DNA from: a virus
Length of the DNA: 39,421 nucleotides
IMG/VR virus record: IMGVR_UViG_3300026991_000009
Location: 1-39,421 of that record
Strand: one strand, 5' to 3'
Each line of letters starts with the position of its first letter. The stretch's first letter is position 1. Shown here in pieces: positions 3,934 through 34,600 of the stretch. The notes beneath the pieces are model-generated. The model had not been told where the DNA came from. It saw only the letters and a program-made list of their open reading frames with translations, and searched no databases. Position numbers and translations under genes: made by a program.

Positions 3934-4401
3934 ATGAGATACTCCAGAGAAGACTGTATCGAGGCCCTTCGGAAGGCAGCCGAAGAGTATGGACCGGACC
4001 TCACGGTAACGCAGTACCGAGAAAGCGGCTTCTGTCCGAGTGACCGGACCATCCTGAACAGGTTCGGAACTTGGAATGAAGCAAAGGAGGCTGCCGAGCT
4101 CGACGCTACTCGCGTTGGTCTCACGCTGGACAACAAGTACGGCCCAGCGGGATATAGGACCACACCGGACGGCTACTGCAGCTGGCAGTTCCAGGAGTTC
4201 GGCGACTGGGCTGCCGTGAAAGTCCACCGGCTACTCGCAGTTTCCGAGTTCGGGTTCGATGCAGTAACCGACAAGGTGGTCCACCACAAGAACGACATCC
4301 CCTGGGACAACAGACCTGAGAACCTCGAACCGATGGGGCGTGCCGAACACACGGCCCACCATCGCGAACAACAGGAAGCGCGGCGCGCATCTACCTCGTG
4401 A
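3934..4401 (+). CDS. HNH homing endonuclease with N-terminal homing-endonuclease-associated repeat
   Basis: YSREDCIEALRKAAEEYG...FGTWNEAKEAA repeat plus VHRLLAV...VHHKNDIPWDNRPENL...EHTAHH. Confidence 0.92.
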   Translation: MRYSREDCIEALRKAAEEYGPDLTVTQYRESGFCPSDRTILNRFGTWNEAKEAAELDATRVGLTLDNKYGPAGYRTTPDGYCSWQFQEFGDWAAVKVHRLLAVSEFGFDAVTDKVVHHKNDIPWDNRPENLEPMGRAEHTAHHREQQEARRASTS

Positions 4402-25200: not shown

Positions 25201-25421
25201 TCATCCGGGCCGAGGCGACGGTCGACGAGCTGCCGCCCGACGTCTCCGTCGTCGAGACGCTGACGATCCCGAACCTGCCGACGGCTGGGGAGGCGGTCGA
25301 ACTCCAGGACATCACGCAGTCGGAGAAGTCTCCGACGTTCGTCCTCGGCAACCGCCAGGGACTCGGTGAAGCACTCCAGAAGATCCGCAGCCGACTCCAG
25401 GACGTGAGCGAATTGGTCTAA
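22221..25421 (+). CDS. Large tail protein with fibronectin type III domains
   Basis: 1066 aa; FDLSWDG and TNLTSDTVTETSVDLSWQDNADNEDG...YRYRLR FN3 signatures. Confidence 0.8.
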   Translation: MVDLITSATLNGGSISLTIEQDDDGDGTADVTEQVSVSDGETTTALSTITTGATQYRISQDISGEAQLHSHRLATFGVTGFAVADGSGSEFDLSWDGDAYPSGEWRIFRSTVDSPTYPGDYTHIDTVSDPGATSYTDTLQKDGRTFSWFVRRLVDGNTTDSSRVTLAFADEDQPVLGNGVEDEVAIDRETAVSGYGDVRFQIRDTGEATWDSNAAGYDEQVIDSGTITTIFAGREDGEEYEVRGRTEAEDITGAWTAPVSIVAKLPGITNLTSDTVTETSVDLSWQDNADNEDGIDVERAKQYDDGWGPFRDFGTLDPNTEAFADDTVSPNRTYRYRLRIFTEHADATSTIDVDTATNDVRQTNVPTRGWYVEVDHPSGRTLTPSIIAEDVDYPTPVNDLPRVRIPIPKADIWLNDQQLEEQPLRVWQDGKRKPIGQLENVRERPDRVILEGRGGLALTNRVTVEYTEEEAQAGAADVIGQTGLAYDVDDPTTETSTDDRMQSADTTSEWLDRLATLDDIVTVENGVLTTYQVGYFGEAEDGTIGTNGSVIGSSTYSSEEAVGFDGPTGLQHFVEVDIETDHDIPAGDVQFAARLNFLDDGDMGFNLLLDGQEVESYSADSNVGTGTSWRTTSQYSSSLPAGTHTLRIEFDEDSTTDDGSIDVDALALWDGRYASQPGNSVTGGVLSWDLYPGGIEQEMTDAVTFLSIVAGKLTSSWNGTSGDQAVAISNDQGQNWIEATNSETVEGEFASGAAQIRARFRLAGYDPDPDTSPAGRKVPHEVDLYDLYADQSDLPLLINKKHDGSAKDALQRWAQFADALWTVIWDESIDDERVVWTWPGLRTRESSVDLVDYETAKLNEESYEQVLVKGQAKTETGDSVTADIGNAAPLEHGDIVEGSGRVYNRDDGTEYSEGSDYELARIPGELTALSGGSISDGEPLAVDYNWKISGVYPEDDMLDTNDPKVVVRDVPSLPSERMCQQAALYLYRVVDEPLIRAEATVDELPPDVSVVETLTIPNLPTAGEAVELQDITQSEKSPTFVLGNRQGLGEALQKIRSRLQDVSELV

Positions 25422-26227
25422 ATCTTCTCGACTGTGGGAAGGCTCCCATTCCACTCTCTGATGGCGGCATCGTCTCGGTGTTTGGTGCCCAACGTCCCAG
25501 ACCAGTTCGCGAAGGGGCCCAGTTCATCAGTCTCCGAGTCCTCTGTGATTTTCCCATCGGACCACTCCCACTCCACCTTTACAGTCACACGAACGGAGTA
25601 GCTGTTGTTGTTCTCGACGTCGAAGTCGAAAATGTCCGACTGGCCGGTATCTGCCTGCGTGAACTCAACGCTAACTCCCTCCTCGGGCTCGGGCGTCGCC
25701 GTCGGCGTGGGCGACTCAGTCGCGGTCTCCGTTTCAGTCTCCGTCGGTGTTTCCGTCGCTGTCTCGGTGGGCGTCTCCGTCGGCGTGTCGGTGCTGGCCT
25801 CGGTCGCCGTAGCCGAGCACGATCCCGCCGCGGGGTTGTCGGCCGACGCCTGCCCGCCGTCGGGACCGTAGACCAGCACGCTCTCGACAACGGCTGCCGT
25901 CTCGAAACTTTCAGTACCAGCGTAGTCTCCGTCAAACTCGGTCGTGCTTCCGTCCGAGAGCGAGGCCAGCACGGGCCCGTAGGCGTCCGCTGTCACCTCG
26001 AAGCTGCTGCAGGTGGGAAAGGTCACGTCGGGGTCGAACGCTGGCGTGGCGGTGCTCGTGGCCGTCTCGGCGGGCGTCGCAGTCGACTCGTTCCCTGCTG
26101 CCTGCGCCTGTCCACTACCACCGCCGAGATCGGCCTGGCTACCAAGCACAGCGCCGGTAGAGAGCACAGCACCCCCGCCAGCAACGTAGCCCAGGAGTTC
26201 ACGCCGAGTCATGCCATCGTCGCTCAT
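25418..26227 (-). CDS. Tat-exported Thr/Pro-rich surface protein (moron), 269 aa
   Basis: MSDDGMTRRELLGYVAGGGAVL twin-arginine signal; TETP repeats; TATA-like cttatg about 25-30 bp upstream of ATG 26227. Confidence 0.85.
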   Translation of the reverse strand: MSDDGMTRRELLGYVAGGGAVLSTGAVLGSQADLGGGSGQAQAAGNESTATPAETATSTATPAFDPDVTFPTCSSFEVTADAYGPVLASLSDGSTTEFDGDYAGTESFETAAVVESVLVYGPDGGQASADNPAAGSCSATATEASTDTPTETPTETATETPTETETETATESPTPTATPEPEEGVSVEFTQADTGQSDIFDFDVENNNSYSVRVTVKVEWEWSDGKITEDSETDELGPFANWSGTLGTKHRDDAAIREWNGSLPTVEKI

Positions 26228-26295: not shown

Positions 26296-26415
26296 TCAGT
26301 CGCGCAGGTTGCGAAGATGGGTGTCCTTCCACCACTCGGACTTGACATCGGACTGCTCGCAGCCCGGGAGGTGGGCGATGTACTCCGGCGCCGCAGCGGA
26401 CTGGCCGCTACCCAT
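26296..26415 (-). pseudogene. Orphan 3' fragment homologous to the C-terminus of the 27229-27462 gene (39-codon ORF)
   Basis: MGSGQSAAAPEYIAHLPGCEQSDVKSEWWKDTHLRNLRD; 10/26 ungapped identities including H-x-P-x-C-x-Q...SEWW. Confidence 0.8.
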
Positions 26416-27232
26416 CTGCGTGTGCCTGGTTATGTTCCGCTTTCGTGAGTAATTCGACGTTCTCCAGCCGATTGTCCCATTTCACGCCGTTTCTGTGGTG
26501 GACGTCGTACTCGCCAGAGAAAACTCGGTGCGGCTCGCTGCCTTTTGAGATGGCGAGGAGCTGATGTACTCGCAGAAACCCTCCGCCTTCTGAGCTGTCT
26601 TTCCAGTACTCGTAGCCGTCAATTCCAGTTCCGAAGGTTGCGAAGCTGTTCTTAACGGCTTCGAGCCTGCCTCTTCGTGGGATGCCGTGGCGTTGCATCT
26701 CGGTTCGGATAGCCTCGCGGTCTACACCGAGTTCCTGGCCAACTTCGCTCAGTGACATCCCCTCCTCGTGATACAGCCGCTGAAGCTCTTCTGGGTCGGC
26801 CCACATTCGCCGTCTTCGTTTAATCGAGTCTGTTCGATTCTCTATCCCGTGTCGTCGAAGCCAGGTCTTGATTGTCCCGGCCGAGCACCCCATATCGTCA
26901 GCAATCTCTTTCGGCGTCCTCTCATCTTGGTGATGCGCCTGCCGGAGTGTGTACTCATTTTGCCAGGGCATCTCGGTGTGCTTCCCATTGAATGACGGCC
27001 CCCTCTTCTCGATCCCCAGCTCGTCCATCCATTTGAGAATCCCAGAGGGTGTGATGTCCCACCCCTCCGCTATCTCCTCTGAGGTCATTCCCTCTCCGTG
27101 GTAGAGTTCCCGTAGCCGGGCTTCGTCTGTCCACGGTTTCTCGTCGTTGTGCGACTTCGATGCGTGGATCTTCTGAGCACGTTCTGTTTCGAACGTCCGC
27201 GTGCAATTCTCGTGGGTACACTCTACAGTCAT
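26408..27232 (-). CDS. HNH endonuclease with C2H2 finger and three HTH repeats, 274 aa
   Basis: CTHENC...HASKSH; three PW/MW...LY...EIA..GC...HGI repeats; VHQLLA...VHHRNGVKWDNRLENV...EHNQAH. Confidence 0.92.
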   Translation of the reverse strand: MTVECTHENCTRTFETERAQKIHASKSHNDEKPWTDEARLRELYHGEGMTSEEIAEGWDITPSGILKWMDELGIEKRGPSFNGKHTEMPWQNEYTLRQAHHQDERTPKEIADDMGCSAGTIKTWLRRHGIENRTDSIKRRRRMWADPEELQRLYHEEGMSLSEVGQELGVDREAIRTEMQRHGIPRRGRLEAVKNSFATFGTGIDGYEYWKDSSEGGGFLRVHQLLAISKGSEPHRVFSGEYDVHHRNGVKWDNRLENVELLTKAEHNQAHADG

Positions 27233-27462
27233 TGGTCCAGGATTTGCTCTGCCCACCATTCTGAGAGGGTGAATCGTTGCGAACAGTGTGGTTCGTGCGG
27301 AACCTCGTCGACGTTCTTCGCTCTTGCACCACACTCCTCACACTCGACTTCGCCGGTCGGCTCCCCGATCTTGTACCCGTCAACGGAGACGGGCGTGTCC
27401 GACCGTACGAGCTCGAACTCGGTGTCGGGATCGCTGAAACTCCGATACTGGCTGCTACCCAT
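27229..27462 (-). CDS. Zn-finger protein, 77 aa
   Basis: MGSSQYRS...CEECG...HEPHC...SEWW; ATGA coupling to HNH. Confidence 0.75.
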   Translation of the reverse strand: MGSSQYRSFSDPDTEFELVRSDTPVSVDGYKIGEPTGEVECEECGARAKNVDEVPHEPHCSQRFTLSEWWAEQILDQ

Positions 27463-27549
27463 CGAGACGCACCCCCAGGCCGGCACCGCGGGTGTAGTTG
27501 AGAACGATCTCGCGCGACGTTTTCGGTAGTGGAATTCCTATCTCTGCTT

Positions 27550-27843
27550 TCATGAGTTATCACCGTCGTTGCGGAACCGCGGGTCTGTCCATCCGGAACC
27601 GTCGATCGTCAGCCTGTACATCCTGCAGGTGTCGCACCAGTTCTCGCCGTAGCCGTAGAGCGCGTCCTCGCGACAGATGGCGTAGTGGACTTCGCCCTGG
27701 ACCTCGGGACACAGCGGCGTCTCGTGCTTCTCCTGCCCACCCTTCGTGACGTATACGGGCGGGAACCGCGGCTGGTCGAGGCCGGAAAGCGAGATCCCGG
27801 CCGTCCCGATGCGGTGGTTCTGCGGGTGGAGGGCGTCACTCAT
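27550..27843 (-). CDS. Hypothetical Cys/His metal-binding protein, 97 aa
   Basis: HETPLCPEV and WCDTC motifs. Confidence 0.65.
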   Translation of the reverse strand: MSDALHPQNHRIGTAGISLSGLDQPRFPPVYVTKGGQEKHETPLCPEVQGEVHYAICREDALYGYGENWCDTCRMYRLTIDGSGWTDPRFRNDGDNS

Positions 27844-33578: not shown

Positions 33579-34088
33579 ATGATAGACAACTCGGAAGGGC
33601 ATAAAGAATATTGCCCCACTAACCGCGGTAGCACAGATCGGCCCTGGCAGGACGAAGAGGTACTTCGAGACCTCTACGTTGACGAGGGGCTCAGTATGGA
33701 AGCAGTGGCCGAGAAGCTCGGCTGCGCTCAAAAAACAGTTCACAAGTGGATCCACCAGCACGGGATCCAGATTACGGATCCTCGTGGGCGCGGCGTGAAG
33801 GGGCGTCGGATCCCTGGGTTCCCAGCCGCTTTCGGTCACCGGAAGTCCGGGTCCGAAACTGTCACCTACGAAGTGTGGCGAGACAGTCAGGACGTAGTTA
33901 CTGTCCACCGCCTTCTCGCAGTCGCGGAGTATGGATTCGACGCACTCGATCGTGACGTCGTCGTCCATCACGAGAACGGTATCGGCTGGGACAACAGGCC
34001 CGAGAATATCGAGCTAATGGACCACTCCGAGCACTCACGCCTGCACGCCGTCCAACTTTGCGAACAGCGAGGAGGGTGGGTTTCATGA
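33579..34088 (+). CDS. HTH-HNH endonuclease
   Basis: RPWQDEEVLRDLY..EGLS...LGC...TVHKW...HGI; VHRLLAVAEYGF...VHHENGIGWDNRPENI. Confidence 0.92.
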   Translation: MIDNSEGHKEYCPTNRGSTDRPWQDEEVLRDLYVDEGLSMEAVAEKLGCAQKTVHKWIHQHGIQITDPRGRGVKGRRIPGFPAAFGHRKSGSETVTYEVWRDSQDVVTVHRLLAVAEYGFDALDRDVVVHHENGIGWDNRPENIELMDHSEHSRLHAVQLCEQRGGWVS

Positions 34089-34600
34089 GCGCCGCCGAGT
34101 CCGAACCGGCTGAGGCGGTCCACCCGACGGACAAGCCGTACAAGAATTCCGACCTGCTCGAACGCCTCTACATCGGTAAGCGACTCACCACGCGCGAGAT
34201 CGCCGAGCGCCTCGGGTGCACTAACGGGACTATCAGCCGGTGGCTGAACAACCACGGCATCGAGACCCGAGAGAACTGGACGGCAGGCGTCGAGGCCGCG
34301 AAGCGGGCGAACCGGGTCGAACGAGTGAAACTCCGCTCGCTCCCGTCCGGGTACGAGTACTGGGCATCCCAGGAGTGGCGGTCTGGCGAAGACACGCGGA
34401 CGAACGAGATCGTCTACGTTCACCGTCTCCTTGCCGTTGCGGAGTACGGCTTCGAGGCCGTTGTCGACAACGACGTCCACCACGAGAACGGAGTAAAGTG
34501 GGACAACCGCCCTGACAACATCGCAGTCGTCGATCCGGCGGAGCACGGCCGCCACCACTCGATGGAGTTCCACCACGGTGACGGAGGCGATCTTGCATGA
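34085..34600 (+). CDS. HTH-HNH endonuclease (tandem paralog)
   Basis: KPYKNSDLLERLY...EIAERLGC...TISRWL..HGI; VHRLLAVAEYGF...VHHENGVKWDNRPDNI. Confidence 0.92.
   Translation: MSAAESEPAEAVHPTDKPYKNSDLLERLYIGKRLTTREIAERLGCTNGTISRWLNNHGIETRENWTAGVEAAKRANRVERVKLRSLPSGYEYWASQEWRSGEDTRTNEIVYVHRLLAVAEYGFEAVVDNDVHHENGVKWDNRPDNIAVVDPAEHGRHHSMEFHHGDGGDLA

What the first reader, a model, noticed from the sequence alone, without database searches (positions are those of the whole stretch)
26296..27463. HNH cassette that appears to have invaded a Zn-finger gene and supplied it a new 3' end, leaving the original C-terminus orphaned
Seen: upstream of the HNH (minus strand) is an intact 77-codon gene ending CEEC-GARAKNVDEVPHEPHCSQRFTLSEWW. 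Directly downstream of the HNH stop is an unannotated ORF containing GQSAAAPEYIAHLPGCEQSDVKSEWW, which aligns without gaps at 10/26 identities. Hand count of A/T-ending codons: intact gene 5' part 9/44, its current 3' part 14/33, orphan fragment 4/36. So the orphan matches the native 5' half, while the present 3' end looks foreign like the HNH gene. A 15/16 direct repeat (GATGGGTAGC[A/G]GCCAG; 27448-27463 and 26401-26416) also brackets the unit. Inference A: a roughly 925-bp cassette (replacement 3' end plus HNH) inserted at the second Cys codon, restoring the gene with a recoded, cleavage-immune tail. This would be intron-free and intein-free homing into a coding sequence. Inference B: a whole-gene duplication, then a microhomology deletion in the downstream copy.
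Basis: partly seen in the sequence, partly recalled or inferred. Interest (0 to 1): 0.85.

Follow-up and report, generated by a model that had tools for sequence, protein, structure and literature searches.

The report
Homing nuclease carrying spare gene tail
In a provirus of a salt-loving archaeon, a selfish HNH nuclease gene sits inside a small zinc-finger gene; it brought a foreign substitute for the gene's last third and left the original end stranded downstream, a trick known from fungal mitochondria and seen here in an archaeal virus.

Summary
Gene A (27462-27229, 77 aa, phrog_17157) is followed by an HNH gene (27232-26408) and a 39-codon ORF (26415-26296) whose codons 4-39 are a second A-family tail.

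- **Empty allele found.** It is collinear with the window apart from 924 extra bases.
- **Composition.** The extra DNA (foreign tail plus HNH) has 56% GC against 64% for the window. Its A/T-ending codon share matches the HNH, not the flanks.
- **Recurrence.** The closest HNH relative (Haloprofundus salilacus provirus) also follows an A gene with an AT3-rich tail. A third locus (L050) has foreign tail, HNH and a 17-codon native orphan, joined at a different codon.

Two points of that reading do not hold as stated. The new tail is a natural allele type, not a recoding. The 16-nt repeat is not a target duplication: its second copy is a 10-nt copy of the U-stop/A-start overlap, and its origin is unexplained. 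Cleavage and immunity are untested.

The architecture matches the mobile-ORF gene hybrids of fungal mitochondria. This scan has noted the same design before on other DNA.

The parts
27455..27553 (-). Gene U (32 aa), the small gene upstream of A. Its stop codon overlaps the start of A.
   Evidence: ORF list and translation. Its last 29-31 nt plus the first 9 nt of A are identical in the HNH-free contig L015.
27448..27463 (-). Repeat copy 1: the native U-stop/A-start overlap (10 nt) plus A codons 4-5.
   Evidence: The same 10-mer sits at the U/A junction of L015.
27331..27462 (-). Gene A 5' part, codons 1-44 up to the second Cys of the CxxC knuckle. GC3-rich like the rest of the genome.
   Evidence: A/T-ending codons 9/44. 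It aligns with L015 positions 97-279. Only 71.5% identical to L015 in codons 4-44, so it may be partly co-converted.
27229..27330 (-). Gene A 3' part, codons 45-77 plus stop: the foreign 'type-1' tail carrying the His/Cys half of the zinc site.
   Evidence: A/T-ending codons 14/33, differing from background at p = 2e-4. The tail type is shared with P0004-P0006, L019 and L050. No nucleotide similarity to L015.
26408..27232 (-). Free-standing HNH endonuclease gene (274 aa): C2H2 finger, three HTH repeats and an HNH_3 domain. Its start overlaps the A stop (ATGA).
   Evidence: Pfam HNH_3 34.9 bits against a cut-off of 24.8; phrog_7545 E 3e-51. All invariant residues of a 6-protein alignment are kept. 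It ends 3 aa after the last invariant His, while five relatives run on for 3-56 more residues.
26407..26416 (-). 10-nt filler at the right junction, an exact copy of the U-stop/A-start overlap. It supplies the HNH stop codon and the orphan's ATG.
   Evidence: The sequence upstream of it shows no further match to the U end.
26296..26406 (-). Orphaned native 'type-2' tail of gene A (codons 45 to stop of the ancestral gene). It reads as codons 4-39 of a 39-codon ORF (26415-26296).
   Evidence: 92/111 nt and 31/36 aa identical to the tail of L015. A/T-ending codons 4/36. phrog_17157 positions 54-79. No other such short protein among 5.8 billion sequences.
25418..26227 (-). Downstream gene (269 aa, looks secreted). 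It marks the native right flank.
   Evidence: Its homolog follows the HNH-free A gene directly in L020.

Best explanation
A mobile cassette made of a foreign A-gene tail plus a free-standing HNH homing endonuclease gene entered the provirus's own A gene between the second Cys codon (27333-27331) and the next Gly codon. The 5' part of A now reads into the imported tail, which restores the second half of the zinc site. The HNH is translated from an overlapping stop/start. The native tail is left as a non-functional remnant after the HNH.

Most likely mechanism (inferred): the HNH cuts HNH-free alleles at or near that codon boundary. The break is repaired from an occupied allele, using the conserved 5' part of A as the left homology. 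On the right, repair uses either the native tail (two-sided homing, the orphan serving as homology arm) or, in the founding event, illegitimate joining at microhomology. The occupied allele would escape cutting because the site is split by the insert.

Shown: the insert and both junctions, an empty allele, foreign composition, and recurrence in two other genomes. Inferred: cleavage, its position, immunity, and the repair route.
For: 1. Empty allele. L015 is collinear with window 27511-27329 and 26408-26293, with 924 nt extra in the window.

2. Lineage of the orphan. L015 is by far its best nucleotide match (82.9% over 111 nt). The present tail has no such match.

3. Composition. The insert has 56.1% GC against 64.4% for the window, and the drop lies at about 26410-27330. 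A/T-ending codon counts:
- tail 14/33, HNH 95/274;
- 5' part 9/44, orphan 4/36;
- tail against orphan, p = 0.005.

4. Closest HNH relative. P0017 (57% identical; sister on the tree) in Haloprofundus salilacus follows an A gene with the same overlap. That gene shows the same jump at CxxC, 7/39 against 17/34.

5. Pooled codon counts. The two HNH-linked tails give 31/67 A/T-ending codons, against 135/676 in 19 HNH-free tails (p = 5e-6). The 5' halves do not differ.

6. Third locus. L050 has an A gene, an HNH (45% identical) and, straight after the HNH stop, a 17-codon native tail of the same length as the imported one. Its score is 41 against 13 for the next best of 5,525 windows. GC is 0.67 / 0.55 / 0.69 across the three parts.

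7. No other double tails. None of the 30 related loci scanned has two tails; the only other locus with two is L050 (point 6). None of 16 more distant HNH loci adjoins an A gene.

8. Published precedent. One-sided homing with microhomology junctions, and co-conversion of flanks, are documented for T4 (PMC2988022).
Against: - No biochemical or read-level evidence exists for cleavage, target site or immunity.
- The 10-nt copy of the U/A overlap at the right junction is not predicted by a clean insertion.
- The 5' part of A is less like L015 than the orphan is (71.5% against 82.9%, p = 0.044). The left edge of the foreign DNA could therefore lie as far upstream as codon 4.
- Composition is noisy in this genome. 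Gene U has 12/32 A/T-ending codons and some window genes reach 0.27-0.30. The HNH-free genes of BJ1 and CGphi46 also have AT3-richer tails.
- The L050 HNH does not group firmly with the other two on a poorly resolved tree, and its junction is at a different codon.
- L019 has no orphan.
Confidence: 0.7

Rival explanations
1. Ordinary illegitimate recombination between two related viruses created the mosaic. The HNH gene is a passenger lying next to the exchanged segment, not the agent of the exchange.
For: The right junction looks like illegitimate repair: a 10-nt filler plus 6 nt of microhomology, with the HNH 3' end apparently cut short. Module shuffling is common in these viruses, and the window/L015 comparison is patchy: 100% identity over about 30 nt, then about 72%.
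Against: The same HNH group sits directly after an A gene with a compositionally foreign tail in three independent genomes. Two of them have a native orphan tail, at different codons. Across the 30 related loci scanned, no locus without an HNH after gene A carries a second tail. A passenger would not be expected to recur this precisely.
Confidence: 0.15
2. Inference B in its plain form. Gene A was duplicated within this genome with an HNH between the copies, and the downstream copy then lost codons 4-44 by a microhomology deletion.
For: The orphan ORF keeps the native first three codons and the base before the ATG. The deletion end points share GCCAGT. A template switch giving U|A|HNH|A(full), followed by deletion, would produce exactly this junction.
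Against: The two tails are as different as alleles of different viruses (10/26 aa, no nucleotide match), so this is not a recent in-genome copy. The orphan is 83% identical in DNA to the tail of another virus's single-copy gene. Gene A is single-copy in the other related loci. The composition jump sits inside gene A. A duplication of the A start may still have been one step of the cassette's arrival.
Confidence: 0.1
3. The 39-codon ORF is a functional small gene, for example a regulator or a partner of the HNH, kept by selection rather than a remnant.
For: It has an ATG overlapping the HNH stop in the same arrangement as the U/A coupling, and no internal stop. The locus is 100% identical across at least three records (the window, L017 and L018; protein P0001 was read on 8 contigs).
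Against: No other protein of 22-72 aa resembles it among 5.8 billion sequences. It holds only half of the zinc site. The orphan in L050 has no start codon. The identical copies show only that the event is recent or the sampling narrow.
Confidence: 0.05

Closest known systems
Mobile-ORF (mORF) gene hybrids of fungal mitochondria: Allomyces macrogynus atp6; Glomus atp6, atp9, cox2 and nad3; Rhizopus atp9; Mortierella cox2 (as described in PMC3630166)
   Same: An endonuclease ORF travels with a foreign C-terminal segment of the invaded gene. The segment joins the native 5' part in frame. The native C-terminus stays downstream as an orphan that resembles close relatives, while the inserted tail groups elsewhere.
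   Different: The enzymes there are LAGLIDADG or GIY-YIG, here HNH_3 with HTH repeats. The hosts there are mitochondrial genomes, here a haloarchaeal tailed provirus. Here the nuclease is a separate ORF coupled by a stop/start overlap. The invaded gene is a 77-aa zinc-ribbon gene of unknown function. The window's right junction also carries a 10-nt filler.
Intronless homing of free-standing endonucleases in T-even phages (seg and mob genes; review PMC2988022)
   Same: A free-standing nuclease gene sits beside its target gene. It spreads by double-strand-break repair with co-conversion of flanking sequence. One-sided events with microhomology junctions are documented.
   Different: Typical T4 events use homology on both sides and leave no orphaned gene end. 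Cleavage sites can lie far from the insertion site. Activity is proven there and not here.
Gene-splitting insertions of homing endonuclease genes (mobE in Aeh1 nrdA, mobA in T4 gene 60/39; PMC2988022)
   Same: An HNH-type free-standing endonuclease gene is inserted inside a coding sequence, with no intron or intein.
   Different: There the two gene pieces both stay functional and reassemble as proteins. Here the downstream piece is replaced by an imported tail and becomes redundant.

Membership tests
HNH endonuclease (Pfam HNH_3, PF13392) | Profile match above the curated cut-off, with the His/Asn metal-site residues kept | tested here: met
   34.9 bits against a cut-off of 24.8; phrog_7545 E 3e-51. 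H245, H246, N248, D253, N254, R255, N258, E266, H267 and H271 are invariant in a 6-protein alignment and present here.
Homing endonuclease gene (functional class) | Presence/absence polymorphism at one precise site among related genomes | tested here: met
   Occupied: the window, L019 and L050. Empty: L015, L016, L020, L021 and 15 other alleles.
Homing endonuclease gene (functional class) | Site-specific cleavage of the empty allele and resistance of the occupied allele | not testable with these tools
   Needs purified protein and DNA substrates.
Homing endonuclease gene (functional class) | Super-Mendelian inheritance, or co-existing empty and occupied forms in one population | not tested
The locus is 100% identical in the contigs examined.
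mORF-type gene hybrid | Foreign C-terminal segment joined in frame to the native 5' part, directly followed by the endonuclease ORF | tested here: met
   The same holds in L019 and L050.
mORF-type gene hybrid | Native C-terminus retained downstream and closest to relatives' intact genes, while the inserted one belongs to another allele group | tested here: met
   The orphan is 82.9% identical in nucleotides to the L015 tail. The A tail is of type 1, like P0004-P0006. L050 has a 17-codon orphan.
phrog_17157 (gene A family, function unknown) | Full-length profile match and the CxxC...H...C ligand pattern | tested here: met
   E 8e-22 over profile positions 2-79 of 80. In the 19-row alignment, H56 and C60 are invariant and C41 and C44 are conserved in at least 90% of rows. 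The Pfam DUF7129 match is below its cut-off. The fold model is mediocre (pLDDT 69) and has no significant PDB match.

The most novel reading that the evidence does not exclude
A group of haloarchaeal-virus HNH enzymes are true coding-sequence homing elements that need neither intron nor intein. Each carries a substitute tail for the gene it interrupts, and the stranded native tail serves as the right homology arm for the next round of homing. Different members have shifted to different codons of the same small zinc-ribbon gene: after the CxxC in the window and L019, and after the last Cys in L050. That would extend the mitochondrial mORF strategy to archaeal viruses and to the HNH family.
Probability: 0.45. 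Interest if true: 0.65.

Novelty: new variant of a known kind. Interest (0 to 1): 0.55.

Why it matters
It shows how a free-standing nuclease gene can live inside a protein-coding gene without an intron or intein. It brings the piece of the gene it displaces.

The design is published for fungal mitochondria. My paper searches found no description of it for archaeal viruses or for HNH enzymes. Other windows of this scan have noted the same design in phages and giant viruses, so it may be a general and under-reported way for homing nucleases to invade genes.

Here the case comes with a natural empty allele, an occupied allele, a second occupied lineage with a different junction, and a predicted cut site. 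The specificity and immunity of a haloarchaeal HNH can therefore be tested directly.

It also warns annotators. Short 'hypothetical' ORFs after HNH genes can be stranded gene ends, and the gene upstream can be a chimera.

Tried and rejected
- **Nucleotide search of phage records:** no match to the region.
- **Genome-collection scan with the HNH:** only unrelated bacterial hits.
- **Exact-pattern scans of viral contigs:**
  - The U/A junction pattern found nothing.
  - A conserved orphan 18-mer hit only an unrelated gene, L048.
- **Synonymous-site comparison of the A 5' core with five alleles:** nucleotide identity is 75-78% to all of them, so it cannot assign the 5' half to a lineage.
- **Hidden orphan in L019:** none found.
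- **A-family genes near 16 further HNH loci from viral contigs:** none adjoins an A gene.
- **Tree of 104 HNH domains:**
  - Only 6 of 101 branches are well supported.
  - The window's HNH and P0017 are nearest neighbours.
  - The position of the L050 enzyme is unresolved, and the one-clade test did not finish.
- **Structure of gene A:**
  - Mean pLDDT is 68.9 and no PDB match reaches E <= 0.001.
  - The function of A therefore stays unknown.
- **Second in-genome example at the HNH of 3934-4401:**
  - No tRNA was found by ARAGORN or Rfam.
  - None appeared in 3,300 trial joins that remove the HNH.

Full report
**Setting**

The window is a whole IMG/VR provirus record of 39,421 bases, estimated 95% complete. 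Its nearest named relatives are the Halorubrum siphoviruses BJ1, CGphi46 and Humcor1 of the family Graaviviridae. The finding lies at the end of a minus-strand operon of small early genes. In order, the genes are:

| Gene | Coordinates | Size |
|---|---|---|
| U | 27553-27455 | 32 aa |
| A | 27462-27229 | 77 aa |
| HNH | 27232-26408 | 274 aa |
| Orphan ORF | 26415-26296 | 39 codons |
| Secreted-looking gene | 26227-25418 | 269 aa |

Each gene start overlaps the previous stop: U/A, A/HNH (ATGA) and HNH/orphan.

**Check of the observation**

- The tail of A and the orphan align without gaps at 10 of 26 residues. No shuffle out of 100,000 reached this.
- A/T-ending codons are 9/44 in A codons 1-44, 14/33 in codons 45-77 and 4/36 in the orphan. 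The HNH has 95/274 and 13 long ORFs average 0.156.
- The 16-mer occurs only at 27463-27448 and 26416-26401, with 0.03 matches expected by chance. It extends to 16/17.
- Gene A matches phrog_17157 over its whole length (E 8e-22). The orphan matches positions 54-79 of that 80-position profile (E 0.003).
- The HNH passes Pfam's HNH_3 threshold and carries several HTH repeats.
- The HNH keeps every residue that is invariant among six relatives.

**The predicted empty allele exists**

A protein search with gene A returned 13 relatives. One of them, P0007 (80 aa, Logan contig L015), has the same first three residues. It runs from the CxxC straight into a tail that matches the orphan at 31 of 36 residues. 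At the DNA level:
- Window 27511-27329 aligns with L015 97-279.
- Window 26408-26293 aligns with L015 276-391.

L015 is therefore continuous where the window has 924 extra bases. L015 has no HNH. The orphan's similarity to L015 (92/111 nt) is far above its similarity to any other allele. The present tail of A has no nucleotide match to L015.

**The present tail is a natural allele type**

The family has several tail types. The type now on gene A also occurs in HNH-free genes: L016, L020, L021, L030 and L035. In L020 such a gene is followed directly by a homolog of the window's downstream gene, so the context is syntenic. None of these loci has a second tail. No other protein of 22-72 aa resembles the orphan among 5.8 billion sequences. 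However, 'recoded' is the wrong word for the new tail.

**Composition marks the insert**

GC is 56.1% for 26417-27330 against 64.4% for the window. The drop spans about 26410-27330, and the orphan and the A 5' part lie at 0.63-0.69. The tail of A differs from background (p = 2e-4) and from the orphan (p = 0.005), but not from the HNH. This evidence alone would be weak. Gene U has 12/32 A/T-ending codons and some other genes reach 0.27-0.30.

**Recurrence**

*L019.* The closest HNH relative anywhere is P0017, 57% identical and the window enzyme's nearest neighbour on a tree. It lies in a provirus-like stretch of Haloprofundus salilacus, directly after an A-family gene of the same tail type, again with overlapping stop and start. 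That gene shows the same jump at the CxxC: 7/39 against 17/34 A/T-ending codons. Its HNH has 106/297.

*Pooled counts.* The two HNH-linked tails have 31/67 A/T-ending codons against 135/676 in 19 HNH-free tails (p = 5e-6). The 5' halves are alike at 16/83 against 133/716.

*L050.* A third locus, found on 8 contigs of a JGI metagenome, has three parts:
- an A gene of 74 aa;
- an HNH 45% identical to the window's, with an ATGA overlap;
- a 17-codon copy of the A tail immediately after the HNH stop.

That copy has the same length as the tail now on the gene and shares 7 of 17 residues with it. It is by far the best match to that tail in all six frames (score 41 against 13). GC runs 0.67, 0.55 and 0.69 across the A 5' part, the tail plus HNH, and the orphan. 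Here the junction follows the last Cys codon, not the CxxC.

*Negative controls.* Sixteen loci with more distant HNH relatives have no A gene nearby.

**What does not fit a clean insertion**

- *The filler.* The last 10 nt before the native Gly codon (26416-26407) are an exact copy of the U-stop/A-start overlap, which lies 117 nt upstream of the left junction. The next 7 nt match A codons 4-6 at 6 of 7. This copy supplies the HNH's stop and the orphan's ATG.
- *A short HNH.* The window's HNH ends 3 residues after its last invariant His, while five relatives continue for 3-56 more residues. Its 3' end was probably cut short at this junction.
- *Possible routes to the filler.*
  - Capture of the broken right end by GCCAGT microhomology on the donor strand, with a few bases copied.
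  - A template switch that placed a full native A copy after the HNH, followed by a microhomology deletion of codons 4-44. This is the valid core of inference B.
  - I cannot decide between the two.
- *Comparison loci.* L050 has no such filler. L067, a related HNH at another site, has a 14/16 repeat of the upstream stop/start overlap at both ends of its ORF.
- *The left edge.* It is less certain than composition suggests. Window and L015 are identical for about 30 nt up to A codon 3. Identity then falls to 71.5% in codons 4-44, against 82.9% in the orphan (p = 0.044). Part of the 5' half may have been co-converted.

**Mechanism**

Shown:
- an insert with defined junctions;
- an empty allele;
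- foreign composition;
- an intact-looking nuclease;
- recurrence with a second orphan.

Inferred:
- The HNH cuts empty alleles at or near the junction codon.
- Repair copies the tail and HNH from an occupied allele. The conserved 5' part of A is the left homology. The native tail is the right homology, or illegitimate joining served in the founding event.
- The split site protects the occupied allele.

Co-conversion and one-sided repair at microhomology are established for T4 homing (PMC2988022).

**Comparison with what is known**

The architecture is that of the mobile-ORF gene hybrids of fungal mitochondria. There, a LAGLIDADG or GIY-YIG ORF brings a foreign C-terminus into atp6, atp9, cox2 or nad3 and leaves the native one downstream (PMC3630166). 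Here the enzyme family, the host and the coupled separate ORF differ.

Searches of the paper library found no account of this design in archaeal viruses or for HNH enzymes. This is absence in one library only. Notes from other windows of this scan describe the same design in a P22-like prophage, a sediment phage and a giant virus. I did not test those notes.

**Limits**

- The function of gene A is unknown. The model has pLDDT 69 and no significant fold match.
- There are only three occupied loci.
- The HNH tree is poorly resolved.

**Verdict**

This is a real, well-supported case of a homing-type HNH cassette that replaces a gene tail. It is of moderate interest and is a new variant of a known kind.

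Noticed in passing
ARAGORN and Rfam find no tRNA here. None appears in 3,300 trial joins that remove the HNH. Whether this is a second 'spare end' insertion is open.
   Followed up: partly
window 33579-34600: Two more HNH paralogs lie in tandem on the plus strand (31-43% identical to parts of the HNH studied here), so the provirus carries four genes of this group.
   Followed up: no
L067 63-78 and 665-680: A related HNH (P0041, 46% identical) at a different insertion site is bracketed by a 14/16 direct repeat of the upstream gene's stop/start overlap. The next gene's start motif is repeated once more 20 nt on. Copying of gene-junction sequence at the 3' end may be a habit of this HNH group.
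   Followed up: partly
L011 2495-2740 (BJ1 ORF14) and L010 2507-2752 (CGphi46): These HNH-free A genes also have AT3-richer tails (5/40 against 15/41, and 2/40 against 10/41). This could be a footprint of a lost cassette, or it could weaken the composition argument.
   Followed up: no
L034 1553-1930 and L047 4-597: In two metagenome contigs an HNH relative lies upstream of the A gene rather than after it.
   Followed up: no
L038 2468-2698 (also L037) and L046 196-387: These A-family genes end early: one stops 6 residues after the last Cys, with tblastn similarity to A continuing past that stop, and one has lost that Cys. They may be decaying alleles or further junctions.
   Followed up: no
window 27483-27454 and L015 126-154: A stretch of about 30 nt at the U end and A start is identical between two loci that are otherwise 72-83% identical. 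The identity ends exactly where the 10-nt repeat ends.
   Followed up: partly
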